Origin: Candidatus Poriferihabitaceae bacterium
GTDB lineage: Bacteria; Pseudomonadota; Gammaproteobacteria; Arenicellales; Poriferihabitantaceae
NCBI GenBank assembly: GCA_965221795.1
Contig: OZ244914.1
Coordinates: forward strand, 2,112,974 to 2,176,973
DNA: 64,000 bases
Reading direction: 5' to 3'
The notes under the pieces were generated by a model. The model did not search any database and was not told where the DNA came from. It saw nothing but the letters and a program-made list of their open reading frames with translations. The position numbers and the translations under genes are program-made. Positions 4,088 through 20,855 of this stretch are shown here, one piece after another. The first letter of the stretch is position 1, and each line of letters begins with the position of its first letter.

Positions 4088-5164
4088 ATGAATGCATCTT
4101 CTGATTCTTCGGCACCGCCTGTTTTCGTTACCGGTGCAACTGGACATGTGGGTGCCAATCTTGTCCATCGCCTTCTTAACGAAGGCAAAAAAGTTCGGGT
4201 CCTGCTGAGAAGGGGAAGCAACCATGCCGCAATGGAAGGCCTTGAGGTTGAGCGCGTCTATGGCGACCTTCGGGACCTGCAGTCCACCCGGACCGCCATG
4301 GAGGGTTGCCAAGGGGTCTATCACGTAGCGGCTAAGATTTCCACGATTGATGGCAATCGCGCCTATCGCCGCGAATTATATGAATGCAATGTTCTTGGTA
4401 CCCGTAATATACTTCAGGCTGCGCGGGAATGCGAAGCCGGCCGGGTAGTGGTGACGGGCTCTTTCAGCGCGGTCGGTTACGACTTGGATAACCCGTCTGT
4501 ACCAAGCGATGAAACCATGCAGTTCTTTCCTATGGAGCGCACGATGCCGTATGAACGCAGCAAGGCCTTTGTCGAGCATGAGTGCTGGCGTGCTGTTGTC
4601 AAGGGACAGGATGTGATTGTCGCTACCTGCTGTGCCGTGGTTGGAGGCTGGGATTATTTTCCCTCCCGATTAGGAAGAACCATGTGCGACTATACTGACG
4701 GCAAGCTTCGGGCCTATGTCGATGGCGGCTTCGAGTTCGTCGCTGCACGGGATATTGTGGAAGGGCATTTGCTTTGCATGGAGAAAGGACGTTCTGGCGA
4801 AAAGTACATTTTCAGTAGTGAGTATAAAACCATCTCTGAAATCCTGGATCTGTATGAAGAAGTGTCGGGGATCCCTCGTCCGGGGAAACGGATTCCGAGC
4901 CAAATAATGCTCGCATTTTCCGAGGTAGCGAGCGCCTACCTAAGTCGTTTTCATCCTACTTTTCCCCAGCGATTCACGCCCGGTGCCATTCGCCTGCTGC
5001 GATTGTGTCGTCACGCGAATACGTCCAAGGCGAGGCAGGAACTGGGTTATCAACCGACCACTATCCGAGCGGCGGTGCAGGAGGCCTATTCGTTTCATTA
5101 CCATCACCGTCATGCCATCACCAATCCACAAGCCAAACCTCCCAGCGAGGACATCGCGAAGTAA
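4088..5164 (+). CDS. NAD-dependent epimerase/dehydratase, 3beta-hydroxysteroid dehydrogenase-like (candidate SdmB)
   Basis: Extended SDR: VFVTGATGHVG, NVLGTRN, catalytic YERSK; first gene of the sterol operon. Confidence 0.85.
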   Translation: MNASSDSSAPPVFVTGATGHVGANLVHRLLNEGKKVRVLLRRGSNHAAMEGLEVERVYGDLRDLQSTRTAMEGCQGVYHVAAKISTIDGNRAYRRELYECNVLGTRNILQAARECEAGRVVVTGSFSAVGYDLDNPSVPSDETMQFFPMERTMPYERSKAFVEHECWRAVVKGQDVIVATCCAVVGGWDYFPSRLGRTMCDYTDGKLRAYVDGGFEFVAARDIVEGHLLCMEKGRSGEKYIFSSEYKTISEILDLYEEVSGIPRPGKRIPSQIMLAFSEVASAYLSRFHPTFPQRFTPGAIRLLRLCRHANTSKARQELGYQPTTIRAAVQEAYSFHYHHRHAITNPQAKPPSEDIAK

Positions 5165-5222
5165 TGTGTAAAAGTTAAGCATTAAGAGTTCTTTTCAATG
5201 CCCACCTGTCAACTATTGCCGA

Positions 5223-6332
5223 ATGAAGATGAATGTAAATTCGAGACTGGATGGCCCCCCTGTATTTGAGGAGGCCAACAACCTGCGCCAGAAAGTGCGT
5301 GCCACGGGCCTCGACCCCGATTATTGGTATGCAGTAGAAGAAGTAGGTAATATCAAGCCGGGAGGTGTCACTGAAGTCATTTTCTGGAAACACTCCATCG
5401 CACTGTATCGTTCTGCAGACGGCTCGTTTCATGCCCTCGAAAATCGTTGTGCACATCGTCAGGTCAAACTCTCTCTGGGCGATGTCGAAGGCTGTCAACT
5501 GGTGTGCCCGTACCATGGCTGGTCATATGATGAAACCGGCCGCCGGGCCGATAACCGGAAGGAGGGGGATGACGGGTCGCTGATCAAGCCTTCTATCAAA
5601 AGCTATCCGGTGCAGGTCCGTTATGGCCTGGTCTGGTTGTTTCCGGGCAACCCAGAGCGTGCGCAAGAGCGGCAAATCCCGGATATTCCTGAACTGGAAG
5701 GACGGAATCGTTGGGCCTGCGTCCCTCTCAGTTTCACCTGGTCGGCTCATCACTCAATGATTATTGACAACGTGAGCGATTTCACCCATGCTCACCTGCA
5801 CCGTCGATATCGACCCTTCGACGGCGCTACCCTTACCCATAGTGAAACCATTGGCGATAATGTCCATCTGTCCTACGATACTCAGGTTGGGCGCGGGCCA
5901 ATCTCCGGACGGTTCGTCGATCACAAGAAGCTGAACACCAATCGCATGGAGCTTTGCTACCAGTATCCTTATCAATGGTCGAATACCGATGATGCCATCA
6001 AGCATTGGCTGTTCGTGTTGCCGATCAATGAGCGGACTACCCGGGTCTTCTTCATGTTCTACTTCAAATCATTGAAGATCCCCTTCATTCCGATCAAAAT
6101 CCCCCGTTTTGCGATGACCGGGATTATGACCATATCCAACCGCCTTCTCATCGCACCCTTGCTGGATCAGGACCGATATGCCGTGGAGGCGGAGCAGGAG
6201 GGTTACGAGAAGTATTGGGATGCCCGTCCCATCGAATTCAACCCGGTCGTGAAGTCGTTCCAGGAAGTGACGGTGCGGAAATGGCAGGAATTCCTGGAGC
6301 GAGAAAACGGGGGCCGCGTTGCTGTCGACTGA
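5223..6332 (+). CDS. Rieske non-heme iron oxygenase (candidate sterol C-4 demethylase SdmA)
   Basis: Rieske ligands CAH...CPYH; mononuclear iron motif DNVSDFTHAHLH; operon context. Confidence 0.88.
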   Translation: MKMNVNSRLDGPPVFEEANNLRQKVRATGLDPDYWYAVEEVGNIKPGGVTEVIFWKHSIALYRSADGSFHALENRCAHRQVKLSLGDVEGCQLVCPYHGWSYDETGRRADNRKEGDDGSLIKPSIKSYPVQVRYGLVWLFPGNPERAQERQIPDIPELEGRNRWACVPLSFTWSAHHSMIIDNVSDFTHAHLHRRYRPFDGATLTHSETIGDNVHLSYDTQVGRGPISGRFVDHKKLNTNRMELCYQYPYQWSNTDDAIKHWLFVLPINERTTRVFFMFYFKSLKIPFIPIKIPRFAMTGIMTISNRLLIAPLLDQDRYAVEAEQEGYEKYWDARPIEFNPVVKSFQEVTVRKWQEFLERENGGRVAVD

Positions 6333-6339
6333 CCTCCAC

Positions 6340-7437
6340 ATGCCCTGGTCGTCCATGCTATCAGCCTCTGCCTTGCTGGAGGCTACTGCCATGATCGTGG
6401 CCTTTTTCGGGTTCCTGTTTGTGGGCTCAATGATCCTCCCGGGGCGTCGGATTGAGGGAGGGGAAGCAGAAGGGAAGGTAATCACCTACAAGCTCAATGG
6501 GCTCGCCTTGTTTCTGGCTACTGCAGCGTTTATGTCGCTTGTCCAGTTTTTCGGTTGGTTTTCCCTGTCCGCCTTATACACCCACTTTGGGGCACTTTTC
6601 GTAGTGGTCAATGTGGTCTCCTTTGCCCTTTCTGGCTGGCTGTATTGGAAAGGTATCCGGGACCGGGGCGCGTCGCCTGGATCCCCTGGGGTGTGGCGAG
6701 GATTTTTCTACGGTGTGGAACTCAATCCGAGTGCTTTTGGGGTGGATCTGAAGTTGTACAGTTATCGTCCCTCTCTGATCGGCCTGGCTCTGTTAAATGC
6801 TTCATTTGCGGTCGTGCAGTATGAGACCTATGGTTACCTGACCTTGGCCATGATTCTCTATCAGGCGTTTACTTTTCTGTATGTGCTTAACTATTTCCAG
6901 TTCGAGTATGGAATGATCCATACTTGGGATATTGTCAGCGAGCGCTTTGGATGGATGCTGGTCTGGGGCGATTATGTTCTCGTGCCGTTTTTCTACTGTA
7001 TTCCAGGTTGGTGGCTGGTGAATGCATCCGAATCGGTACCGCTGTCTCCGGTATCGGCCACGCTGATCATTCTTCTATTTGTGTTCGGCTTTTGGGTTTT
7101 TCGAGGCACCAATGGGCAAAAGCATCGCTTCAAGTCTGATCCGAACACCCGGATTTGGGGACGCCCGGCCCAGTCCTTGGATGGTCGTCTATTGGTTTCC
7201 GGGTTCTGGGGGATCGGCCGGCATCTTAACTACACGGGCGAAATCTGTGTCTATCTTTCCTTTGCCCTGACGACTGGATTCGCTTCCTGGATCCCGTACC
7301 TGTTACCTGCCTGGCTCGCCAGTCTGTTATGGCATCGTTCCCGGCGGGATGAACGTCGCTGTCATGCCAAATACGGGGAGTTGTGGGAGCGTTACACAAA
7401 GCGTGTTCGCTACCGGATGTTGCCTTTGATCTACTAA
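6340..7437 (+). CDS. ERG4/ERG24-family sterol reductase (probably Delta14)
   Basis: FFYGVELNP, D....FGWML.WGD...VPF.Y, NGQKHRF, LLVSGFWG..RH.NYTGE, DE.RC..KYG..W..Y...V.Y...P.IY; ATG at 6340 chosen over TTG 6319. Confidence 0.9.
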   Translation: MPWSSMLSASALLEATAMIVAFFGFLFVGSMILPGRRIEGGEAEGKVITYKLNGLALFLATAAFMSLVQFFGWFSLSALYTHFGALFVVVNVVSFALSGWLYWKGIRDRGASPGSPGVWRGFFYGVELNPSAFGVDLKLYSYRPSLIGLALLNASFAVVQYETYGYLTLAMILYQAFTFLYVLNYFQFEYGMIHTWDIVSERFGWMLVWGDYVLVPFFYCIPGWWLVNASESVPLSPVSATLIILLFVFGFWVFRGTNGQKHRFKSDPNTRIWGRPAQSLDGRLLVSGFWGIGRHLNYTGEICVYLSFALTTGFASWIPYLLPAWLASLLWHRSRRDERRCHAKYGELWERYTKRVRYRMLPLIY

Positions 7438-7449
7438 GCCGCCTGGATT

Positions 7450-8850
7450 ATGACTGCACAATCCCAAAATTCGATTGATCCTGGACCAGATGTAGTCGCC
7501 CCCCGTCTGAGCGGGGGTTGGCCGTTGGTGGGCCATTTGCCGAGTTTTCTGAAAGATCCGGTCTCACTGTTGCAGCGCGGCTGGCAGGAAAAGGGGGATT
7601 TATATCGTTTTCGACTCGGCCCACGTGATTTTGCCCTGTTTACTGGACCCGAGGCCCATGACTTCTATTTCAGGATGCCAGAAGAGGAATTGAACGCCAA
7701 GGCGGTATACCAGTTCACGGTGCCGATCTTCGGGCGTGGTGTGGCATACGATGTCGCCCCCGAACTGATGGCGGAACAGCTGGGATTCCTGTTCCCGGCA
7801 CTTCGTGATTCGTCCATGCGCCGGTTTGCCAAAATCATGTTTGCCGAGGCTTCGCGGTTTGCCGACTCTCTCGGCACTGAAGGAGAAATCGACCTGCCGT
7901 ATGCGATGAATGAACTGACTGTCCGAATTGCCAGTCATTGTCTCATTGGAGACGAGGTCCGCAATCAAGTCGATTCCGGATTTGCTGAAGCCTATCATGA
8001 ACTGCAAAATGGGATCAATACGCTGGGATTCTTCTTTCCCAAACTGCCTACTGCGGGCCATCGCTCCCGCGATCGTGCCCGGAAAAAAATTGCCGAGATC
8101 TTCGGCCAGGTGATGGCCAAACGCCGACGTTCTGGTATCAAGGGAGAAGATTTCATGCAGACCCTGATGGACGCTTGTTACCAGGACGGTCGGTCGTTGA
8201 GCGACGAGGAGATTACCGGTATTCTCGTGACTGTGTTGTTCGCGGGTCAGCATACCAGTGCGATACTCGGAACCTGGACCGCTCTGGAACTGCTGCGAGA
8301 TGCTGCGTACGTGGCCCGGGTGAGAGAGGAAGTGGAAAGTCTCTATTCTGAAACCGGCACCATGGATCTGGATGGTCTGAAGCGACAGGTTACCCTGGAG
8401 TATGCGGTCAGGGAAGGCGAACGATTACACCCCCCCTTGATTATACTGATTCGCAAGGTGCTCAGCCCCTTGCAGTATGGCAGCTATACGTTGCCGGTCG
8501 GTACCTTAGCCATGGTCTCGCCGGCCGTCTCCCACCGGTTGCCCCATATCTTTTCTGATCCGGATCGTTTTTTTCCGGATCGGTTTGCGCCACCTGCTAG
8601 CGAAGACAAAAAGCACCACTACACCCTGATCGGCTTTGGCGGTGGCAAACATCGTTGCATGGGGAAGAATTTTGCCATTATGCAGTTGAAAGTGATTCTG
8701 GCGGTGTTGTTTGAGCGCTTTGATTTTCGTCTCAATGCTGCCTTTCCCTCCCCGAACTATGGTAGTTGGGTGACTGGCCCCCGGGAGCCCTGCCGACTCC
8801 ATTATCGTCGACGCCCAAATGCGGGGGTATTCCAACCTGTATCGTCATGA
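7450..8850 (+). CDS. cyp51: Sterol 14alpha-demethylase, cytochrome P450 CYP51
   Basis: CYP51 signatures Y.FTVPIFG.GV.YD and I-helix FAGQHTS; EGERLHPP; heme motif FGGGKHRC. Confidence 0.9.
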   Translation: MTAQSQNSIDPGPDVVAPRLSGGWPLVGHLPSFLKDPVSLLQRGWQEKGDLYRFRLGPRDFALFTGPEAHDFYFRMPEEELNAKAVYQFTVPIFGRGVAYDVAPELMAEQLGFLFPALRDSSMRRFAKIMFAEASRFADSLGTEGEIDLPYAMNELTVRIASHCLIGDEVRNQVDSGFAEAYHELQNGINTLGFFFPKLPTAGHRSRDRARKKIAEIFGQVMAKRRRSGIKGEDFMQTLMDACYQDGRSLSDEEITGILVTVLFAGQHTSAILGTWTALELLRDAAYVARVREEVESLYSETGTMDLDGLKRQVTLEYAVREGERLHPPLIILIRKVLSPLQYGSYTLPVGTLAMVSPAVSHRLPHIFSDPDRFFPDRFAPPASEDKKHHYTLIGFGGGKHRCMGKNFAIMQLKVILAVLFERFDFRLNAAFPSPNYGSWVTGPREPCRLHYRRRPNAGVFQPVSS

Positions 8851-11800
8851 GTCAACGCTACGATATCGCTATTGTGGGGGCGGGTCCAGTCGGTAGTGTC
8901 TGCGCCTTGGCCCATGCACAAAAGGGTGCCCGGGTGGCTTTGCTCGAAGCCAATCCCAAGTCCGCCTTGCGGCTAGCCGGGGAATGGCTGCATCCGCCGG
9001 CCGTAAAGATATTGCGCAGCCTCGGGGTTGACCTTCCCCCATCGTGTTCACAGGCCACCGGGAAAGGGTTTGCCATCTTTCCAGAAGATAGTACCGAGCC
9101 CATTACCTTTCCTTACCCAAACGGCAGCCTAGGATTCACATGCGAACATTCTGCGCTGGTGGAAAGTCTCCGTAAGACTGTCAGCAGCAATCCAAATATT
9201 GAATTTCTTGTCGGTGCACGTGCATCCACGATTGAGGATGGGTGTATCGAGTATGCGCATGATGGAGCCAGTAGAACGATCCAGGCTGCTCGAATCGTCG
9301 GGGCCGATGGCCAAGCCTCTGTCGTTCGCCAGTCGTTGGGCCTGTCGGTCACTCCGAAGATCTGTTCGCAGACGGTGGGCGTCCTGTTGAGCCATGAGGT
9401 GCAGTTATCGCTGGAGGGGTATGGGTATGTGATACTTGGTGGCCCGGGCCCGATTCTCCTTTATCGGCTGGCAAGTGGTGTGGTCAGACTGATTGCCGAT
9501 ATTCCGCTGAATCGTACGACCCCCAAGGACCGAGTGGCTTTTTTACTGGACTCGTATACCGACCTATTGCCGGATTCCCTCCAGTCTGCGTTTGTCCAGG
9601 CGTTGCGATTACGGCAATTCCAGGTTGCGATCAATAAACTGAGGCCACATGTCACTTACGGCAGCTCCCATCGAGTCCTCATTGGCGATGCAGCCGGGCA
9701 TTATCATCCTATGACTGCGATGGGAATGACCTTCGGATTCGGTGATGCATTTTCCTTGGCCGAAACGGAACGTTTTGATGACTTTGTTGCGCAACGTTTT
9801 CGGGAGACTCACACCCCATCTTTTCTTGCCATGGGGCTCTACGAGGTCTTTGCCGACTATCGGGCCGAAGCAGTCGCGATCCGGCATGCCATCTATCAGA
9901 GGGCCCGGGCCAGTTCAGTGTTCCGGGATCGAACCATCCGCTTGCTGGCCTGTGAAGATACCTCGCCCGCCCGCATGGGGGTCGCGTTTTTCGGTACGGT
10001 GATTCGTGCGTTGATGGCCCAGGTCCCGAGGTCCCTGGACTGGCTGGCGTGGCAAAAATCCTGGCACACCCTACAGGCCATGATTACTCGCATTGGATGG
10101 CTGTTACAAAGTATGCGGCGACTGTACCGGATCAAATACCGGAGTGGGGCAATGGATGAGCAAGCCTGGAGTACGCTGTCGAGGGTCTTCCCACACTCTA
10201 TGCCATGGAAATCGGACACATCCAAACCCAATCACTCGAAGAGTAACCCGTCCCCAGATGCGAGACCGGCATTGCAATCTGCGATCCGCCAGTTGCTGGA
10301 AGTGCAGAATAAAGATGGCTCCTGGGAGGGGGAGATGGTCTGGTGTCCCATGCTGACAGCCCAGTATGTGCTGCTGCATCACATCATCGAACGGCCCCTT
10401 CAGCCTGACCGGTGCCGGCATGTGCTGCGATCCTTCGAACAGACCCGTCTCGCGGATGGCACCTGGGGCATGCATGAACACTCACCGCCTCACCTGTTCG
10501 TGACCACATTGGTGTATGTTGCGGCCCGGTTACTCGGGGTCGGGAGAGATGATCCATTGCTGGAACCAGCCCGACGTTTCCTGCATGCGGAGGGCGTAGT
10601 CAATATCCCGAGTTGGGGCAAATTCTGGCTGGCTATTCTCAATCTATACGACTGGCGTGGTGTGAATGCCATTCTTCCAGAGTTGTGGGTGCTGCCCCGT
10701 TGGTTGGCCATCCACCCCTCGAACTGGTATTGCCATACCCGGCTGATTTACATGGCGATGTCCGTGGTCTATGCGCACCGGTTTCAGGTACCGGTTACGC
10801 CGGTGGTCGAGTCGTTACGGCAAGAACTGTTTCCGGCCGGTTTCACCCGTGTTGATTTTACCCATGCCCGCAATGCGCTACGGGACGGCGATCTTTTCGC
10901 ACGTCCGGGCAAAATGTTGCGGGTTGGGTATGCGCTGGCACGAGGGTTTGAACGATATGGTGGCAAGGGCCTACGCCCCCAATGTGTGAAAGCTATCACC
11001 GAGCGTATCCATTGGGAGTTGAAAAGCAGTAGCCACACCTGTATATCCCCAGTCAGCGGCACACTGAATCTCCTCGCCTTATGGCTACAGGATCCAGACG
11101 ATGTGGATTTCCTGCAAGGGCTGGAACGGCTGGAGGGCTGGATCTGGGAGGACAGCGCACAGGGTGCCCGGGTCACCGGTGCCAGAAGTGCTTCATGGGA
11201 TACCGGATTTGCCTTGCAGGCCCTGGCGACCGTAGCGGGTTTTGATGGTGTGCGCGATGCTATGAAAAAAGGGGCTGATTTTCTCTTCCAGCAACAAATT
11301 CGCCACAGCTTTGAGGGATTCGCCCATGCATTTCGCAATGACCCCCAAGGCGGCTGGTGTTTTGCAGGAGGGTGGCATGGATGGCCAGTGACGGATTGCA
11401 CAGCGGAAGCAGTACTGGGGCTGATCAATGTGCATGGAAAAGCCGTTGATCGCTCCGTACTGAACGAAGCGATTCAATTCATGTTGCGCGGGCAAAATAG
11501 AGATGGCAGTTTTGGCAGCTATGAGGCGCGACGTTCCGCACTGGGTCTTGAGTGGCTGAATCCGGCCGAGATGTTTGGCGAATCAATGACAGAAGGATCC
11601 TACGTCGAATGCACTGCATCGTGTCTTGCCGCCTTTGCCGCTTGCAAGCGGCATTATCCCGATCTCATTCGGCAGACGGTCATGAAGTCGATTCTTCGGG
11701 CCGATGCTTGGCTGCGCCGTACTCAGCGGGCAGATGGTTCATGGCGTGGTGTATGGGGTGTGCAGTACATTTATGGTACCTTATTCGGAATTCGGGCTCT

Positions 11801-12341
11801 ATTGGCCGCAGGGGCCCACCCGAGTGATACCGCATTGCGCTTGGCTTGTCGCTGGCTATTGGACCGCCAGCACAGCGACGGAGGGTGGGGTGAGCATCAC
11901 AGCGGTTGTCTTTCCGGCCAATATGTCGACCATGACGAAAGTCAGGTGATTCAGACTGCATGGGCGCTGATCGCACTGCTGGAAGCGAAGGATTCGAGCT
12001 GGCATGCCATTTCCAAAGGAGCACAATATCTGCTGGATACTCAGAAAGCGGATGGAACTTGGCCCAAGCAAGACATGGCTGGGGTATTTTTCCGCACGGC
12101 CCTGTTGGACTATGTTCTGTATCGACAGTATTTTCCTCTGCATGCACTCGGTCTCTATGAGCAGCATCGCCAGATACGCTTGAATTTGACGAACACCGCG
12201 ATTCTGGATGATAACGTGAAACCGGCCGAAGCCGAATCTTCGTTGCCCTTGATCCCGCTTCATCCACCTTTGACTCCGAATCCGCCATCGCCTGAAGCTG
12301 CTCCCGGAACTGGTTCAGGGAATTACGCTTCTCTAGGATAA
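8847..12341 (+). CDS. Squalene epoxidase - oxidosqualene cyclase fusion (1164 aa)
   Basis: N-half: IVGAGPVG, RLAGEWLHP, LIGDAAGHYHPMTAMGMT (SE/Erg1-like). C-half: QW repeats, IPSWGKFWL, WYCHTRLIY, catalytic DCTAE, GVQYIYGT, GGWGE. ATG overlaps the cyp51 stop (ATGA at 8847-8850). Confidence 0.92.
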   Translation: MSQRYDIAIVGAGPVGSVCALAHAQKGARVALLEANPKSALRLAGEWLHPPAVKILRSLGVDLPPSCSQATGKGFAIFPEDSTEPITFPYPNGSLGFTCEHSALVESLRKTVSSNPNIEFLVGARASTIEDGCIEYAHDGASRTIQAARIVGADGQASVVRQSLGLSVTPKICSQTVGVLLSHEVQLSLEGYGYVILGGPGPILLYRLASGVVRLIADIPLNRTTPKDRVAFLLDSYTDLLPDSLQSAFVQALRLRQFQVAINKLRPHVTYGSSHRVLIGDAAGHYHPMTAMGMTFGFGDAFSLAETERFDDFVAQRFRETHTPSFLAMGLYEVFADYRAEAVAIRHAIYQRARASSVFRDRTIRLLACEDTSPARMGVAFFGTVIRALMAQVPRSLDWLAWQKSWHTLQAMITRIGWLLQSMRRLYRIKYRSGAMDEQAWSTLSRVFPHSMPWKSDTSKPNHSKSNPSPDARPALQSAIRQLLEVQNKDGSWEGEMVWCPMLTAQYVLLHHIIERPLQPDRCRHVLRSFEQTRLADGTWGMHEHSPPHLFVTTLVYVAARLLGVGRDDPLLEPARRFLHAEGVVNIPSWGKFWLAILNLYDWRGVNAILPELWVLPRWLAIHPSNWYCHTRLIYMAMSVVYAHRFQVPVTPVVESLRQELFPAGFTRVDFTHARNALRDGDLFARPGKMLRVGYALARGFERYGGKGLRPQCVKAITERIHWELKSSSHTCISPVSGTLNLLALWLQDPDDVDFLQGLERLEGWIWEDSAQGARVTGARSASWDTGFALQALATVAGFDGVRDAMKKGADFLFQQQIRHSFEGFAHAFRNDPQGGWCFAGGWHGWPVTDCTAEAVLGLINVHGKAVDRSVLNEAIQFMLRGQNRDGSFGSYEARRSALGLEWLNPAEMFGESMTEGSYVECTASCLAAFAACKRHYPDLIRQTVMKSILRADAWLRRTQRADGSWRGVWGVQYIYGTLFGIRALLAAGAHPSDTALRLACRWLLDRQHSDGGWGEHHSGCLSGQYVDHDESQVIQTAWALIALLEAKDSSWHAISKGAQYLLDTQKADGTWPKQDMAGVFFRTALLDYVLYRQYFPLHALGLYEQHRQIRLNLTNTAILDDNVKPAEAESSLPLIPLHPPLTPNPPSPEAAPGTGSGNYASLG

Positions 12342-12828
12342 CCGATCGACAAGACCACTGGAGGGATCGCATCTTCCTGATGGCAGAGTCCGACACAAAT
12401 CCCCAACGACAGCAATCGCCATCTCTCGACATCCGTTCTGAGTCGTAAACGCAATCAGTGCGAGATAGGTGAGTAATTGGTGATCGAATCCACGCGAGTG
12501 GCATAAGGCGTTCATCACAACACCTTGTCCGTTGCTCAATGGCCAGAGCGTGTCGCGCATGAAAGGGTTGTCGTGGGGCAGCGCGACACCAACGAGTACG
12601 CTATCAGACACGACGAAGGCTTCTTCGAATGGTCCGGTTGCACCAGCTGTGCATCCTCATAATCCGGTCAGAAGCATTCAGCGACATGGTCATTCCAATC
12701 AAGCGGCCACTTAGGCGATTGCAGTGAACCACATGAAGGAAGCGTCTGCGTATGTCAGGTCATCCAGACCGATCAGCACTCATACCAGGGAAGGCGTTGG
12801 CAGCCCGGAAACTGGGCCAGTCGATAGG

Positions 12829-13647
12829 CTACCGTACTCGTTTTAGCGCTGTTTGGGTAAAGTCCCTATCATCCAGATCAGTACCAAACTCGTAGTCGGA
12901 CCATTCCAGCACGGTGCTCTTTCCCGTCAGGTGATTTTCCATGGTGATTGTACTGGCCCGCCAAAAACGATCCAGGTACTTCCGATAATCCTTCACCGTC
13001 ATGGTTTTCAAATGTACTTCCCCGCGGTCGAAAAACTGAATTTGTATGGTCCGGAGCTCTTCTTGATCCAGCCAAACTAACTGACGGGTATATCCAGAGT
13101 CTTCACTCAAGGGAATACGCTCCAGGACGATACACTCGAGATCTCCGCAGGATTCCTCGCGCAGGTGTCGGTGCACAAATTTTTCGACCTCCACCGCCCC
13201 CATGTCCTCATAGGAAAATTCGCTGCCCATGAAGGAACCGGACTGGTTTGAGGAACTGATGGCCTTGACTCGCCTCAGGGCAGGAAGGTAGAGCCACTGG
13301 TCATCTGGAGAATCTTTATGGGCATGGACGAGAAAAGCAGTCCCCCTGACATCCCGTGGACGATCGAATACAAACAGGGTTCGGTCGCCGTCGTTATCGA
13401 CCTCCATGACCTTGATCCGCACTTCGCGTTTGCTTTCCTGCCCCTGCTTGTTGCGCAGAATCATATCCAGGTTTGCTGTGAAATTACTGAAACCCTTCTG
13501 GCGTTCACGGGCCTCAGTGGCAATCCGAAGCCCCAACTCCTCGACACTCTCCGCGCGACCGAGAGATGAATTGGTCATCCAAACAACAACAGCAAGGAGT
13601 GCTACAGACCAAGTCAACATTGGTCGAGGAAAACTCACACACATCAT
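12829..13647 (-). CDS. LolA-like outer-membrane lipoprotein-sorting family protein (secreted)
   Basis: Signal-peptide-like N-terminus; F..P.DVRGTAFL, DDQWLYLPALRRVK.I, SFMGSEFSYED motifs; the longer ORF in the track runs in from the IS. Confidence 0.8.
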   Translation of the reverse strand: MMCVSFPRPMLTWSVALLAVVVWMTNSSLGRAESVEELGLRIATEARERQKGFSNFTANLDMILRNKQGQESKREVRIKVMEVDNDGDRTLFVFDRPRDVRGTAFLVHAHKDSPDDQWLYLPALRRVKAISSSNQSGSFMGSEFSYEDMGAVEVEKFVHRHLREESCGDLECIVLERIPLSEDSGYTRQLVWLDQEELRTIQIQFFDRGEVHLKTMTVKDYRKYLDRFWRASTITMENHLTGKSTVLEWSDYEFGTDLDDRDFTQTALKRVR

Positions 13648-13749
13648 GGCTGTTTCTTTCTGCAGGTGTTCACAATCAAAATCAGTAAGCGAGATCAATG
13701 TCACAACTGTAGACTTTGGATATCGCCTTGCGAGTAGCATTTTATCATA

Positions 13750-15102
13750 CCCCGGGACCAGTCCGAAGTGCAACCGCGCCGCGATCCCGGAATGAGGGCG
13801 TAGCCCGAAGGGAGGGGTCGCGGCGGCGACCCAAAAATCCGCGCTGCGAGTGCTTCTTTTCGGCCCCGGATGGCAACCATCTCGACTCCAAGCGATCCTG
13901 ACCGAAGCCATTGACCAAGGCAAAGGCGAGTTCGGGACCTGAAGGCCGAGTGAAGCCGCTCCGGTGCATCACCGGAGGGCCCGGAGTGCCGGGGCGATGG
14001 GGGACCGTGGGCCGCGTCAGGGGGGAGCCAGACCACGGGCAAAGACCTCTGCCGGGGTACGAACCCCCGGGGCCTTCCGAGGCCGACGGTGGAGCCGGTC
14101 CTCCACCGCCCGCACCGGTGCCGCGGTCACCTGGCGGAAGTCGGTGCCCTTCGGGAAGTACGGGCGCACCCGGCCGTTGGTATGCTCGTTCCGGCCCCGT
14201 TCCCAGGAATGGTAGGGAGTGGCGAAGTAGAAGCCTGCGCCCAACGCCGCAGCGATCTCCCGGTGCTTTGCGAACTCCTTGCCGTGGTCCGCCGTGCCGA
14301 TGTGGACCCGGTCCCGAACCGGACCCATGCGCCGGGTGATCGCCTCGGTGCCCTGCGGCGGCCGTCTTGCCTTCGACCCACGCCAGGAACCGGAACTTCG
14401 AGCCCCGGTCCACTGCCGACACCAAGGCACCCCGGTGCCTCGCTCCCATGATCGGTTCCCGCTCCCAGTCCCCGATCCGGCACTGCTCCTCAACCACTGC
14501 CGGCCGCTCCGCAAGGTCCACCCAATCGGGAATGTGACCGCGTCCGGCAGAGCGGCCGCCGCGCCCATTCGGCTTCTGGCCCCGACGTCGCCGGCACCGG
14601 TACAGGATCCCTCCGGCCTGCCGATCCGTCCGCACCTGCGGGTAGATCCACTCCTGGCCCGCCATCCCTTCGCCCGGCAACCGAACCCAGCCCGCGATCT
14701 GCTCCGGGCTCCATCCTTCCTGCAACCGTCCTGCCGCGACCACCCAGCGCTCCGGTGTCCTCTTCCAGGGCACCGCCGAAGCCTCCTGACGACGGGCCGT
14801 CGCCTTGCCGTCGGCCTGCGGGTGCCGGTCGCCCCGCAGGCCGCGGTGGCGCGAGGTCTCCCGCGAGATCGTCCCGGGGTCCCGTCCGAGATCGCGGGCC
14901 ATCTCCGGTTTCGACCACCCCCGATGCAACCGGGCGTGAATCTGGCATCGTTCGGCATGGGTCAGGGGGTGGTAGTCTACGGGCATGGCAATTCTCCGTT
15001 CGTGATCAACCGAGATGGTTCGCCATCCTCTGGCCCACCGCAAGCTTTTCACCTCACGAGCCAGCGGCTTAGGGGGTGTTGCACTTCACACTGGAACGGG
15101 GG
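13750..15102 (-). mobile_element. IS30-family element copy 1, frameshifted transposase
   Basis: 25-bp imperfect TIRs (CCCCGGGACCAGTCCGAAGTGCAAC / CCCCCGTTCCAGTGTGAAGTGCAAC); 3-bp TSD ATA (13747-49, 15103-05); IS30 motifs YHPLT..ER..I, WSPEQIAG, GDWE, DHGKEF, PYHSWERG.NEHTNG..R.YFPKG split across frames. Confidence 0.9.
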
Positions 15103-15907
15103 ATACGATTATCAGTTCCGGATAGCACTGTAGAAGCCATGCCAATTTTGGAAGTTAGAGGGCAAGGCGGGAAATAGACCCTGCGGAGATGATAAGAGGG
15201 CGGGGCCTGATCGAGATTAGGCAAGCAGTGGTCCCAAGAGAGGCGGTGGCGGAATGGAACCGGTCGATTCGCGATCTTTTGCGTGGCTGGGTGCTAGGGT
15301 CGACCGGACCTTACAGAGCCGGAATCGCGAGGGAGATGCGGAAGCTCTCCGCTCCTGCTTTCAAGTCGAAGAACCCTGCCAATCATGTCCGGCCATCATT
15401 GTGAGGATACGGCCGCACCTGCTGGGAAATTGCGCCCCGGACACCGCTCGGCAGGCGAATCCGCTTCTTCCTCTTCCTGGATGCCATGCTTACAGGCTCA
15501 TCGGGAAATTTCATGTTGCGTTCCTCAGTTGTGCAGCGGGAGAAGCATGATGGGTGAGGCGGCACAGGTTCTTCGGATATGACTGCAGCACAATCTTGTG
15601 TTGCCGCGCCACAAGAAGTGGCCGTTGCGGTGGCGCTACGGCTCTGGCAGCCATGCGCCGTCAGGACGCCACAGGCAAGCGTCCATTCGATGCCCTGCGA
15701 GAGGTGCTCAGAGGGATGGAACCCAAGAAATACGATCTGGATTGGCTCGAGTGCCCGCACTGTCCAGCACCTATTTGGGCGTTCATAATTGATGGGTTCG
15801 GCTGACGTCTTTAACGGGGCAGACGGCTGCCGCAGGGAGCACCGCCTGTGCAAATGACTTGGCGTGACCACTCCATGAAAGTGGTTCGGTGGTAAAATCG
15901 CACTGCC

Positions 15908-17320
15908 ATGCAGACGAATGATGCCCTGACCGCGCTTCGGGACCTTCCTGGCCCCAAGGGGCTGCCGTTGGTCGGCGTATTGCACCAGATACGCTTCGAC
16001 CGGTTACATCTCCAACTAGAGGCTTGGGCAGACAGCTATGGTGCCCTGTTCCAGATTCCCATGGGGCCGTACTCCGCCGTTGTGGTCTCGGACGCCGCGG
16101 CTGTCCAGCGCATCCTTGTGCAGCGTCCGCAGGTCTTCCGACGCACGCGGCGGCTTGCATCAGTGGCACAGGAAATGCGGCTCAAGGGCGTATTCGCCAC
16201 TGAGGGCGAGGACTGGCGCCGCCAGCGCCGGGTCGTCACTGCGGCGCTCAACCGCCAGAAGCTCACCGACTTCTTCCCAAAGCTTGCTGTAACGGTCGCG
16301 CGCCTGCAGCGGCGCTGGGAAGGGGCGGCGGACCTGGGCGAGCCAGTGGATATCTGTGGGGACCTCATGCGCTTCACCGTCGACATCACCATGCAACTTG
16401 CTTTCAGTGTCGACGCCAACACGCTGGAGACATCAGGGCCGGTGATCCAGCGCCATCTCGACAAGGTTTTGCCCGTGCTGTACCGACGGAGCAATGCGCC
16501 CTTCGCTTGGTGGCGCCTCTTCCGCCTGCCTTCCGACCGGGCTCTCGACCGGGCACTTGAAGCCATTGAGCGCGAGGTGGGCGAGATGATTCGTGTCGCC
16601 AGGCAGCGCATGGCAGCAGATCCGGGCCGCGCACCCACCGACTTTCTGGAAGCCATGCTGGCAGCGGTGGAGGAGGAAGGATCAGGCTTCTGCGATGCGG
16701 AGATCTTCGCCAATGCCGGCAACTTGCTGTTGGCCGGAGAGGACACGACCGCCAACAGCATCGCGTGGGCGATGCACTATTTCATGCTCTATCCTGAAAT
16801 GTTCGAGCGCGTTCGCGGCGAGGCGGATGCGCTGCTCGCCCCGTCACCGGCACTGGAGGACCTTGAACAGGCGAATTGTCTGCCGGTCCTTGATGCCTTC
16901 TGCAGAGAGGTCATGCGGATCAAACCAGTGGTACCACTCCATGTCGCCGAGCCGGTGACAGACATCGAATTGCTGGGTTGTGCGATCCCGAAAGGCACAC
17001 CGATCTTCATGCTGCTCCGCTATATAGCGACCCGTGAGACGCATTTTGCCGGCGGTGACCGCTTTGATCCTGAGCGCTGGTTACCCGAATCGCAGCCCAG
17101 TCCGCATGATCGCCGAGTCTTCCTGCCCTTCGGCAGCGGCCCGCGCCTCTGTCCTGGCCGTGCGCTGGCGCTGCTTGAGATCCGCGCGGCGCTTACCATG
17201 CTTTGCCGCAATTTCGACCTGGAGCCGGTCATGTCCGCCAGCGAGGTCCATGAACACATGGCTTTCACCATGCTGCCCGCGGGGCTGAAGGCGCGTCTCA
17301 GGCGGCGGGTGGCATGCTGA
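15908..17320 (+). CDS. Cytochrome P450 (non-CYP51, family unassigned)
   Basis: LPGPKGLPLVG N-terminus, AGEDTT I-helix, EVMR (ExxR), PERW, FGSGPRLCPG heme motif. Confidence 0.92.
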   Translation: MQTNDALTALRDLPGPKGLPLVGVLHQIRFDRLHLQLEAWADSYGALFQIPMGPYSAVVVSDAAAVQRILVQRPQVFRRTRRLASVAQEMRLKGVFATEGEDWRRQRRVVTAALNRQKLTDFFPKLAVTVARLQRRWEGAADLGEPVDICGDLMRFTVDITMQLAFSVDANTLETSGPVIQRHLDKVLPVLYRRSNAPFAWWRLFRLPSDRALDRALEAIEREVGEMIRVARQRMAADPGRAPTDFLEAMLAAVEEEGSGFCDAEIFANAGNLLLAGEDTTANSIAWAMHYFMLYPEMFERVRGEADALLAPSPALEDLEQANCLPVLDAFCREVMRIKPVVPLHVAEPVTDIELLGCAIPKGTPIFMLLRYIATRETHFAGGDRFDPERWLPESQPSPHDRRVFLPFGSGPRLCPGRALALLEIRAALTMLCRNFDLEPVMSASEVHEHMAFTMLPAGLKARLRRRVAC

Positions 17321-19117: not shown

Positions 19118-19619
19118 AAAGACTATGCGGCATTATTTAAGACTCTCTGTATAGCATCGTAGATGCGTGGTATGGTGTACACAACTTCCTGCCACTTCCC
19201 CGTGCCGAGGGAGTGACTGATTTCCAGTGATGAAACGGCTTTCAGAGATTAGCGGGCTCCTCCCTGACGGATGTGGCAAGAGTGGTCATCCCAGTTTCTG
19301 GCGGTCTATGGTCGGCTTCATCATGCGGAGCCTGATTTCGTTGGTAGAATGTGGCAATCGTCGAACGCCGAATCCAAACCAACAAAAACAGAACTGCGAA
19401 AACCCGTTCACATTTACCCCCTAGACTCGAACTCTATCTTTGCAGATACACAAAATGCCGACAGATCCATCTCTCTATAAAGCGGCCTCCGGTCGTACCT
19501 TGACCATGCCCCGGTCCGATGGTCCAGCTTCCTGGAATCGAAAAAAGGTATGGTATGCGGTCCAAAAGGGGCCAATTCTCTCCTATGGTAGTCGCAATGC
19601 GGGTCAGGCCGGTCAATTG

Positions 19620-20855
19620 ATGGCCCTTCTCTGGATGATTCTCGCTCTGTTGACAATCGCGCCCGCACAAGCAAGTGCCGACAATGGTTTTCTCGATTGG
19701 GTGGAAGTCTTCGGACGTATTTCGACCGATGTCTGGCACTATCCCGATAGTGCCGCTTATCCTGATCAGCGCTCCTATCTGGGCGGTCTTGCTCTGGAAA
19801 CTACCGTCTATATGGAACATGAGGATGGTAGGAGTATCACGTTGACGCCTTTTTTTCGATATGACGCCGGAGATCCAGAGCGGACATATGTGGATCTTCA
19901 GGAAGCCTATTTGCTGACATACGGTGATACGACTGACGGGGAATGGGAAGTACGGTTGGGTTTCGACCGAGTGTTTTGGGGAGTTGTGGAGTCACGTCCT
20001 CTGGTGAATATCGTCAACCAGACCAATCCCGTTGAACATCCGAACGAACAGAGCAAGCTGGGTCAACCGATGCTACACTACACCTTGTCGTCTGGATGGG
20101 GCATACTGGAGTTTTTCGGTATCACGTGGCATCGCGAGCGCCTCTACCCGGGCCGGCATGGACGTCAGCGCACCGGACTGATAGTGACCCCGGAACTGAC
20201 TTCCTATGAATCGGCTGCAAAAGAGTGGCATTTAGATTTTGCCAGCCGTTACAGTCACCGACTCGGTCCACTGGATATTGGAATCAGTCTGTTCGATGGC
20301 ACGAATCGCGAGCCCACACTTTTGCCGGTAACGTCTGGCTCCCAGCTGGTCCTAGCGCCACACTACGAGCAGGTTCGCCAATATGGACTGGATGCTCAAC
20401 TCACTACCGGTGCCCTGCTTCTCAAACTGGAAACCATCCATCGGGCTGGCGCGAGGAATGCCCGTTTGCAAGAGGACGATTACATGGCTTTTGTCATTGG
20501 AGGTGAATACACGATCAATTCCGTGTGGGATTCGAAGGCTGATCTGGGCCTGTTTGTCGAATGGGCGTATGACGACCGGGGGCAGTGGGCCACCAACGCC
20601 TTTGAAAATGATCTGTTCCTTGCTGCACATCTCGGGTTGAACGATGTATCCAGCACCGAATTCGTTGTCAGCCTACTGGCTTCCCGGGATAATAGTAGTC
20701 ATATTCTCGGCGTAGAATTTAGTCGTCGACTCTCGGACCAATGGTACCTGAACACCGAGGTTTCCCGATATCTGGAAATTGATGATGCGGTGGATGTTCT
20801 GTATCCAGTACGTCGCGACAGTTATGTCAGAGTGAACCTGGACTACAATTTCTGA
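19620..20855 (+). CDS. Putative outer-membrane beta-barrel protein
   Basis: Signal peptide MALLWMILALLTIAPAQA; alternating beta-strand pattern, FWGVVES motif, C-terminal ..NLDYNF; start 19620 preferred over 19440. Confidence 0.65.
   Translation: MALLWMILALLTIAPAQASADNGFLDWVEVFGRISTDVWHYPDSAAYPDQRSYLGGLALETTVYMEHEDGRSITLTPFFRYDAGDPERTYVDLQEAYLLTYGDTTDGEWEVRLGFDRVFWGVVESRPLVNIVNQTNPVEHPNEQSKLGQPMLHYTLSSGWGILEFFGITWHRERLYPGRHGRQRTGLIVTPELTSYESAAKEWHLDFASRYSHRLGPLDIGISLFDGTNREPTLLPVTSGSQLVLAPHYEQVRQYGLDAQLTTGALLLKLETIHRAGARNARLQEDDYMAFVIGGEYTINSVWDSKADLGLFVEWAYDDRGQWATNAFENDLFLAAHLGLNDVSSTEFVVSLLASRDNSSHILGVEFSRRLSDQWYLNTEVSRYLEIDDAVDVLYPVRRDSYVRVNLDYNF

What the first reader, a model, noticed from the sequence alone, without database searches (positions are those of the whole stretch)
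4088..6332. SDR + Rieske pair: bacterial-type C-4 demethylase or a different sterol-modifying step
Seen: adjacent SDR and Rieske oxygenase head the operon, and no ERG25-type di-iron oxidase is present in the window. Known: SdmA/SdmB remove a C-4 methyl by a route distinct from eukaryotic ERG25/26/27. Sterol-acting Rieske enzymes also include Neverland/DAF-36 Delta7-desaturases and KshA. Inference: an SdmAB role is best supported by context. Whether one or both C-4 methyls are removed matters for sterane biomarker interpretation.
Basis: partly seen in the sequence, partly recalled or inferred. Interest (0 to 1): 0.65.

Follow-up and report, generated by a model that had tools for sequence, protein, structure and literature searches.

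The report
Known bacterial sterol C-4 demethylase pair
These two adjacent genes are the bacterial SdmB/SdmA-type enzyme pair that removes methyl groups from carbon 4 of sterols; they head a five-gene sterol operon already published from many sponge-associated bacteria, so the reading is right but not new.

Summary
ORF 4088-5164 is an extended SDR and ORF 5223-6332 is a Rieske/VanA_C oxygenase. They head a tightly packed operon with a C-14 reductase, CYP51 and a fused squalene epoxidase::oxidosqualene cyclase. No FA_hydroxylase (ERG25-type) gene lies in the window.

Both proteins hit the NCBIfam SdmB and SdmA models best, over their full length, but below the narrow methanotroph equivalog cut-offs. 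They are 44-45% identical to a methanotroph-type SdmA/SdmB pair. KshA-type Rieske proteins are remote (21% identity, different C-terminal domain). True HpnA forms a separate clade, and an AU test rejects grouping the SDR with it (p = 4e-7). The genome has no hopene cyclase.

The same SDR-Rieske-reductase-CYP51-fused-cyclase cassette occurs in at least 561 species-level genomes. The nearest 80 are almost all sponge-associated or other uncultured marine MAGs from several phyla. It is published as msbA-E (2020), as "clusters of steroid genes" (2022), and as sdmA/sdmB homologues (2023).

Whether one or both C-4 methyls are removed stays open. The genome has no second SdmB/SdmC-like SDR. The pair sits in the Myxococcota-type branch, not the methanotroph branch. 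This is a correct, ordinary find.

The parts
4088..5164 (+). SdmB-like extended SDR (358 aa), the proposed C-4 decarboxylase / 3-ketoreductase
   Evidence: Pfam Epimerase 4.6e-34 and 3Beta_HSD 6e-19. NCBIfam SdmB NF052578 333.8 bits is the best hit, against HpnA 237 bits. 44.8% identical to the methanotroph-type SdmB of G178. Careful tree and AU test.
4130..4153 (+). Codons for TGATGHVG (residues 15-22), the Rossmann dinucleotide-binding motif of the SDR. R41-R42 follow the second strand, which suggests NADP(H) (inference).
   Evidence: Motif positions; sequence.
4550..4564 (+). Codons for YERSK (Y155...K159), the SDR catalytic Tyr-x3-Lys. The Ser/Thr region TGSFS is at residues 123-127.
5223..6332 (+). 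SdmA-like Rieske non-haem-iron oxygenase (369 aa), the proposed C-4 methyl oxidase
   Evidence: Pfam Rieske 1.5e-20 plus VanA_C 1.3e-13. NCBIfam SdmA NF052579 394.6 bits; the next family scores under 34 bits. 44% identical over 346 aa to the methanotroph-type SdmA, E = 1e-105.
5448..5522 (+). Rieske [2Fe-2S] ligands: C76-x-H78 ... C95-x-x-H98 (CAHR ... CPYHGW)
   Evidence: C76 and C95 are invariant and H78 and H98 at least 90% conserved across 17 diverse family members. Positions.
5778..5801 (+). DFTHAHLH (186-193): His189 and His193 of the mononuclear iron site. The carboxylate partner Asp317 is at 6171-6173.
   Evidence: H189, H193 and D317 are invariant in alignment A1.
6319..7437 (+). ERG4/ERG24-family sterol reductase (C-14 reductase-like), next gene in the operon
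   Evidence: PF01222 4.9e-72.
7450..8850 (+). CYP51 sterol 14-alpha-demethylase, without a ferredoxin fusion
   Evidence: PDB 6mcw CYP51 1.5e-104.
8847..12341 (+). Fused squalene epoxidase::oxidosqualene cyclase (about 1164 aa), which supplies the 4,4-dimethyl sterol substrate
   Evidence: Pfam SE, FAD_binding_3 and SQHop_cyclase_N/C. TIGR03463 728.9 bits. ATGA start/stop overlap.

Best explanation
The pair is a bacterial SdmB/SdmA-type sterol C-4 demethylase. The fused epoxidase-cyclase makes a 4,4,14-trimethyl sterol (lanosterol-type), and CYP51 plus the ERG24-like reductase remove the 14-methyl. The Rieske oxygenase takes electrons from a ferredoxin/reductase encoded elsewhere and oxidises a C-4 methyl stepwise to the aldehyde or acid. 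The NAD(P)-dependent SDR oxidises the 3-hydroxyl, which triggers decarboxylation, and then reduces the 3-ketone back. Shown here: homology, intact cofactor and catalytic motifs, co-inheritance of the two genes, and sterol-operon context. Inferred: substrate, order of steps and number of methyls removed. I lean towards both methyls (about 50%), against one (about 35%). The reasons are that the pair belongs to the Myxococcota-type branch rather than the methanotroph branch, and that the genome has no SdmC-like second SDR.
For: SdmA and SdmB are the best full-length NCBIfam hits. Identity to a pair that passes both equivalog cut-offs (G178: 698 and 678 bits) is 44-45%. Rieske and iron ligands and the SDR GxxGxxG and YxxxK motifs are intact. 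The SDR lies directly upstream of the Rieske gene in 75 of 80 related loci, the colinear five-gene cassette is present in 65 of 80, and the SDR is the most conserved protein of the cassette (median 77%). The SDR and Rieske trees are congruent: the sponge clade (100/100) nests among Myxococcota pairs, and the methanotroph pair is the sister clade. The genomes G395 and G039 carry both this SDR next to the Rieske gene and a separate true HpnA. The genome has no second SdmB/HpnA-like SDR, no second cyclase and no hopene cyclase. The literature lists the same clade (TsSOB = L032, 73% and 80% identical; Aplysina bins) as SdmA/SdmB homologues (PMC10202945 Suppl. Data 1; PMC10070321). SdmAB activity has been demonstrated for Methylococcus, Enhygromyxa and Calothrix.
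Against: No member of the sponge-symbiont clade has been assayed. Both proteins score below the NCBIfam equivalog cut-offs of 600 bits. In Enhygromyxa salina an SdmA+SdmB pair alone gave no demethylation and needed SdmC, and this genome lacks any SdmC. Mohanty et al. (PMC7074536) linked the same cassette to sarasinosides, which keep the 4,4-dimethyl group. No electron-transfer partner is encoded nearby. I could not place the Calothrix or E. salina proteins in my trees.
Confidence: 0.85

Rival explanations
1. The pair is an incomplete demethylase of the Enhygromyxa type. The Rieske enzyme oxidises the C-4 methyl, but this SDR alone cannot decarboxylate and reduce. The product would be a 4-formyl or 4-carboxy sterol, or a non-homologous partner would be needed.
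For: E. salina SdmA+SdmB produced only the 4-methylaldehyde and needed SdmC. The window SDR lies in the Myxococcota-type branch. The genome has no SdmC-like paralogue.
Against: SdmC is restricted to Nannocystaceae. Hundreds of genomes keep exactly this two-gene unit under strong conservation. Calothrix SdmAB alone removes both methyls. Sandaracinus amylolyticus makes zymosterol and is listed with SdmA and SdmB but no SdmC.
Confidence: 0.08
2. The pair tailors another position of the sterol, for example by installing the C-23 oxo group of sarasinoside-type norlanostanes, as proposed for MsbA/MsbB. The 4,4-dimethyl group would stay.
For: Mohanty et al. 2020 proposed this for the same cassette, because sarasinosides retain the 4,4-dimethyl group.
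Against: The msb-sarasinoside link is itself untested. The cassette occurs in at least 561 species, from many kinds of sponge-associated MAGs. The only assayed relatives all act at C-4. The alignment to SdmA is end to end with only three gaps.
Confidence: 0.05
3. The pair is unrelated to sterols: an HpnA-like sugar epimerase plus a KshA-like or aromatic-ring Rieske oxygenase that happen to lie beside sterol genes.
For: Public annotations call relatives 'aromatic ring-hydroxylating dioxygenase subunit alpha'. HpnA is the second-best NCBIfam hit for the SDR.
Against: HpnA scores 237 bits against a cut-off of 367.65. The AU test rejects an HpnA grouping (p = 3.7e-7). The genome has no hopene cyclase. 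KshA scores 33 bits over the Rieske half only, and there is no KshA_C domain. The operon packing and co-inheritance are tight.
Confidence: 0.02

Closest known systems
sdmB/sdmA homologues of the sponge-symbiont sterol cassette: msbA/msbB of the Melophlus sarasinorum gamma-symbiont (Mohanty 2020, PMC7074536); 'DFR + hypothetical protein' of Ircinia clusters of steroid genes (Kelly 2022, PMC9531527); TsSOB and Aplysina bins (Lee 2023, PMC10202945 Suppl. Data 1); Brown 2023, PMC10070321
   Same: The gene order is the same: SDR, Rieske, C-14 reductase, CYP51, fused SE::OSC. The window proteins are 71-81% (Rieske) and 70-81% (SDR) identical to 80 such loci, including TsSOB (L032).
   Different: Nothing essential differs. 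Here the sterol methyltransferase is not next to the cassette but about 1.3 Mb away in a second locus. The cassette sits at a synteny break rich in IS elements.
SdmA/SdmB of Methylococcus capsulatus (MCA1016/MCA1017; Lee et al. 2018, cited through PMC10202945 and PMC6385002; NCBIfam NF052579 and NF052578)
   Same: The two protein families, cofactor motifs and adjacency are the same. Identity to a methanotroph-type pair is 44-45%, full length.
   Different: It is a separate sister clade. The gene order is reversed: sdmA then sdmB in G178. The methanotroph operon carries bstABC transporter genes and removes only the 4-beta methyl. Scores here fall below the equivalog cut-offs.
Calothrix sp. NIES-4105 SdmAB and Enhygromyxa salina SdmABC (Lee et al. 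2023)
   Same: These are non-methanotroph Sdm systems in full sterol clusters. Calothrix shows that two proteins can remove both methyls.
   Different: The Calothrix order is sdmA-cyp51-sdmB. E. salina needs a third protein, SdmC, which is absent here. I could not obtain their sequences, so their relative placement is untested.
Eukaryotic ERG25/ERG26/ERG27 (SMO, NSDHL, 3-ketoreductase)
   Same: The overall chemistry is the same: methyl oxidation, 3-dehydrogenation with decarboxylation, then 3-ketoreduction. The SDR is a distant relative of NSDHL (PDB 6jkg, 1.5e-7).
   Different: The oxidase is a Rieske protein, not a di-iron FA_hydroxylase. One SDR is thought to do both SDR steps. There is no ERG25-type gene in the window.

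Membership tests
SdmA (Rieske 4-methylsterol monooxygenase, NF052579) | Rieske CxH...CxxH cluster ligands plus a 2-His-1-carboxylate iron site | tested here: met
   C76/H78/C95/H98 and H189/H193/D317. Five of the seven (C76, C95, H189, H193, D317) are invariant across 17 diverse members, and H78 and H98 are at least 90% conserved.
SdmA (Rieske 4-methylsterol monooxygenase, NF052579) | Full-length similarity to characterised SdmA, above the NCBIfam equivalog cut-off | tested here: inconclusive
   It is the best hit at 394.6 bits, covering model positions 4-346 of 351, but the cut-off is 600. It is 44% identical to a protein scoring 698 bits. It is a family member, not a methanotroph equivalog.
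SdmA (Rieske 4-methylsterol monooxygenase, NF052579) | Partnered with an SdmB-type SDR and located with OSC and CYP51 | tested here: met
   The SDR and Rieske trees are congruent.
SdmA (Rieske 4-methylsterol monooxygenase, NF052579) | Oxidises the C-4 methyl of 4,4-dimethylsterols | not testable with these tools
   This needs heterologous expression and GC-MS.
SdmB (NF052578) | Extended SDR with GxxGxxG and YxxxK motifs, closest to SdmB among SDR families | tested here: met
   Motifs at residues 15-22 and 155-159. SdmB scores 333.8 bits against HpnA 237 bits. The clade with methanotroph SdmB has 99/90 support. It is below the 600-bit equivalog cut-off.
SdmB (NF052578) | Decarboxylates the 4-carboxysterol and reduces the 3-ketone | not testable with these tools
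   This needs an assay. The E. salina SdmB homologue fails at this step.
HpnA (TIGR03466) | Score above the curated cut-off, hopanoid (SHC) context, and a place in the HpnA clade | tested here: not met
   236.9 bits against a cut-off of 367.65. The genome has no second cyclase. The HpnA clade is separate (100/100), and the AU test rejects union with it (p = 3.7e-7).
KshA (3-ketosteroid 9-alpha-hydroxylase oxygenase) | Rieske domain plus KshA_C catalytic domain (PF19298) | tested here: not met
   The C-terminal domain is VanA_C (PF19112), with no KshA_C hit at E <= 0.001. PDB KshA scores 33 bits over residues 57-190 only. It is 21% identical to a KshA_C-type Rieske from a related locus.
Neverland / DAF-36 cholesterol 7-desaturase | Orthology to animal or ciliate C-7 desaturases | not tested
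   No reference sequence was obtainable with the tools. From memory they are KshA-like, which would place them with the family above.
Sponge-symbiont sterol cassette (msbA-E / CSG) | Colinear SDR, Rieske, ERG24, CYP51 and fused SE::OSC with high identity to published members | tested here: met
   65 of 80 loci are colinear. TsSOB (L032) is 80% (SDR) and 73% (Rieske) identical. The gene list matches msbA-E.

The most novel reading that the evidence does not exclude
The two-gene sponge-symbiont pair, with no SdmC-like helper in the genome, may remove only one C-4 methyl, as in methanotrophs. Combined with the sterol 24-C-methyltransferase in this genome's second sterol locus, the bacterium would then make 4-methyl, 24-alkyl sterols de novo. 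That would be a bacterial source of side-chain-alkylated 4-methylsteranes, a biomarker class usually attributed to dinoflagellates and other eukaryotes (that attribution rests on my own knowledge).
Probability: 0.25. Interest if true: 0.55.

Novelty: already known. Interest (0 to 1): 0.22.

Why it matters
Sterane fossils are read as eukaryote markers. The number of methyls left at C-4 and the alkylation at C-24 are both used to assign sources. This cassette is spread across hundreds of sponge-associated bacterial species from several phyla, and many of them also carry sterol methyltransferases. Whether its SdmB/SdmA pair removes one or both C-4 methyls therefore decides which steranes these bacteria could contribute. 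That question is real and testable, but it has already been posed in the literature for this gene clade. This window adds one more complete-genome example. It also adds a clear negative: there is no third SDR in the genome.

Tried and rejected
- A locus scan with a 17-sequence alignment failed because no stretch was conserved enough. A narrower alignment worked, but it returned only the close sponge clade and no named Methylococcus, Enhygromyxa or Calothrix record.
- Cluster look-ups and a profile search gave few organism names: only Sandaracinaceae, Myxococcales and Gemmataceae MAGs.
- I used a methanotroph-type genome (G178), recognised by scores above both NCBIfam cut-offs, as the reference instead.
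- Sampling 400 Myxococcota genomes gave many SdmB-like SDRs, but I could not tell which, if any, is E. salina SdmB or SdmC.
- The plasmid collection holds no relative.
- The Lee 2018 PNAS paper is not held; its content is cited through PMC10202945 and PMC6385002.
- The promoter and terminator scan showed nothing above chance.
- The genome's FA_hydroxylase genes were considered as hidden ERG25 candidates. They are set aside because none lies near a sterol gene, and the three that were scanned against NCBIfam are only weakly OlsE-like.
- Structure prediction was not run. It would not separate the remaining hypotheses.

Full report
**Observation**

ORF 4088-5164 (+, 358 aa) is an extended short-chain dehydrogenase (Pfam Epimerase 4.6e-34, 3Beta_HSD 6e-19). 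ORF 5223-6332 (+, 369 aa) has a Rieske domain and a VanA_C catalytic domain.

They are 58 nt apart and open a same-strand run:
- ERG4/ERG24-family reductase, 6319-7437;
- CYP51, 7450-8850 (best PDB hits are CYP51 structures, 1.5e-104);
- a fused squalene epoxidase::oxidosqualene cyclase, whose likely start ATG 8847 overlaps the CYP51 stop as ATGA.

Upstream lie a Na+/H+ exchanger and divergent MoaC/MoeA genes. Downstream are a convergent LolA-like gene, IS debris and a second, non-CYP51 P450 in a 64% G+C patch.

No FA_hydroxylase (ERG25-type) gene lies in the window. The genome's four copies are elsewhere, and the three that I scanned against NCBIfam resemble only OlsE-type lipid hydroxylases weakly.

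**What the proteins are**

Against NCBIfam, the Rieske protein's best hit by far is SdmA, '4beta-methylsterol monooxygenase' (NF052579, 394.6 bits, model positions 4-346 of 351). Every other Rieske family scores under 34 bits. The SDR's best hit is SdmB (NF052578, 333.8 bits), ahead of HpnA (237 bits).

Both scores are below the 600-bit equivalog cut-offs, which appear tuned to methanotrophs. A 400-genome sample of the class found one genome (G178) whose adjacent genes pass both cut-offs (698 and 678 bits). I used that pair as a methanotroph-type reference. The window proteins are 44% (Rieske, 346 aa, three gaps, E = 1e-105) and 44.8% (SDR) identical to it.

The cofactor and catalytic residues are intact:
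- Rieske ligands C76/H78/C95/H98;
- iron ligands H189/H193/D317 (five of these seven residues are invariant across 17 diverse relatives; H78 and H98 are at least 90% conserved);
- SDR motifs TGATGHVG and Y155-x3-K159.

KshA: PDB KshA matches only the Rieske half, at 33 bits. The C-terminal domain is VanA_C, not KshA_C. A genuine KshA_C-type Rieske gene that occurs in five related loci is 21% identical.

HpnA: two genomes (G395, G039) carry both an SDR of the window's type next to the Rieske gene and a separate HpnA that passes its cut-off. In a careful maximum-likelihood tree, the HpnA clade is separate (100/100). The window SDR falls in a 100/100 sponge clade. That clade nests among Rieske-adjacent SDRs of Myxococcota, and the methanotroph SdmB clade is sister to the whole group (99/90). 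An AU test rejects joining the window SDR to HpnA (delta lnL 97, p = 3.7e-7). The Rieske tree has the same shape, so the two genes have evolved as a unit.

The genome has no second cyclase, hence no hopene cyclase, and no second SdmB/HpnA-like SDR.

Neverland/DAF-36 could not be tested for lack of reference sequences.

**Distribution**

A scan of species-representative genomes found at least 561 with a relative. The best 80 (71-81% identical) are all uncultured MAGs, many of them sponge-associated. They carry names from Arenicellales, Ca. Poriferihabitans, Ca. Porisulfidus, Defluviicoccus, Rhodospirillales, Pseudohongiella, Ca. Binatia, Nitrospirales and others.

- The SDR lies directly upstream of the Rieske gene in 75 of 80.
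- The full colinear cassette is present in 65 of 80.
- The SDR is the most conserved protein of the cassette (median 77%).
- In Binatia the pair stays together although it is separated from the rest of the cassette.

Within the window's own genus only 4 of 13 species have the gene. In three congeners the MoeA-MoaC-exchanger block is conserved but nothing to its right is. In one of them (G810) the cassette lies 620 kb away and its SDR gene is split by transposases. This is an accessory cassette that moves horizontally.

**Prior knowledge**

- The cassette is msbA-E of a Melophlus sarasinorum symbiont (Mohanty 2020).
- Brown et al. 2023 call the pair sdmA and sdmB.
- Lee et al. 2023 list TsSOB (my locus L032) and Aplysina bins with fused SMO/OSC, CYP51, C-14 reductase, SdmA and SdmB.

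The annotation is therefore already published, though no member of this clade has been assayed.

**Mechanism and the open question**

By analogy with the assayed systems, the Rieske enzyme oxidises a C-4 methyl in three steps, and the SDR carries out 3-dehydrogenation with decarboxylation and then 3-ketoreduction.

Three variants are known:
- methanotroph SdmAB removes one methyl, the 4-beta;
- Enhygromyxa needs SdmA, SdmB and SdmC to remove both;
- Calothrix SdmAB removes both.

Here the Enhygromyxa-type three-protein route is excluded by the absence of any paralogue. The pair belongs to the Myxococcota-type branch, whose named MAG members are Sandaracinaceae and Myxococcales. The cultured Sandaracinus amylolyticus, whose own sequence I did not place in the trees, makes zymosterol and is listed with SdmA and SdmB but no SdmC. 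That case is weakened because the same organism also has ERG25/26 homologues. I therefore lean towards removal of both methyls, but only weakly.

The alternative of Mohanty et al., that the pair installs a C-23 oxo group on a 4,4-dimethyl nucleus, is not excluded. It is unparsimonious given how widely the cassette is distributed.

**Verdict**

The thing is already known, so interest is low. The only open point is biochemical, and it needs the assay described under next steps.

Noticed in passing
own genome C1:799550-813130 (outside the window, about 1.3 Mb upstream): A second sterol-tailoring locus. It holds a sterol 24-C-methyltransferase (801304-802482, -), a 245-aa membrane protein without a Pfam hit, an amine-oxidase-fold flavoprotein, a GPP34::P450 fusion (695 aa) and an MMPL/RND transporter with a sterol-sensing domain. 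The same accessory genes flank the cassette in 11-49 of the 80 related loci.
   Followed up: partly
L171 (congener G810:C1:4176000-4195900), 9628-15314: In a same-genus genome the cassette lies at a different chromosomal place. Its SdmB-like SDR gene is split into a 105-aa and a 239-aa piece by about 4.6 kb carrying DDE transposase/DruA-like ORFs. This is a natural knockout of the SDR with the Rieske gene intact.
   Followed up: partly
window 13745-17320: An intact second cytochrome P450 (15908-17320, not CYP51; nearest PDB hits are eukaryote-type CYPs at about 1e-40). It lies in a 64% G+C patch next to an HTH_38 (IS30-like) ORF, between the operon and a LolA-like gene.
   Followed up: no
window 12829-13923 (-) and 19440-20855 (+): The LolA_like protein recurs near the cassette in 9 related loci. 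In L046 and L085 it is followed by a homologue of the unannotated 471-aa ORF at 19440-20855, which suggests a two-gene lipid-carrier module.
   Followed up: no
L126 2636-5188; L124 5773-8886; L126 12052-15453: Myxococcota sterol clusters hold unusual fusions: HMG-CoA reductase::SdmB-like SDR (850 aa) and squalene epoxidase::squalene synthase (1037 and 1133 aa).
   Followed up: no
L016, L069, L073, L075, L080 (e.g. L069 4189-5265): A second, KshA_C-type Rieske oxygenase accompanies the cassette in five related loci. It is absent from this genome.
   Followed up: partly
L092-L102 (11 gammaproteobacterial genomes): A distinct Rieske family scoring 160-193 bits on the SdmA model, about 30% identical to it, with no SDR within the 1.5-kb flanks. 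It served as the outgroup, and its function is unknown.
   Followed up: no
L115 (G178:C1:3937000-3956000) 9088-11177: In the methanotroph-type reference the order is sdmA then sdmB, preceded by a TPR-like lipoprotein gene that may be bstC. This is the reverse of the SDR-then-Rieske order found in the window and in Myxococcota.
   Followed up: partly
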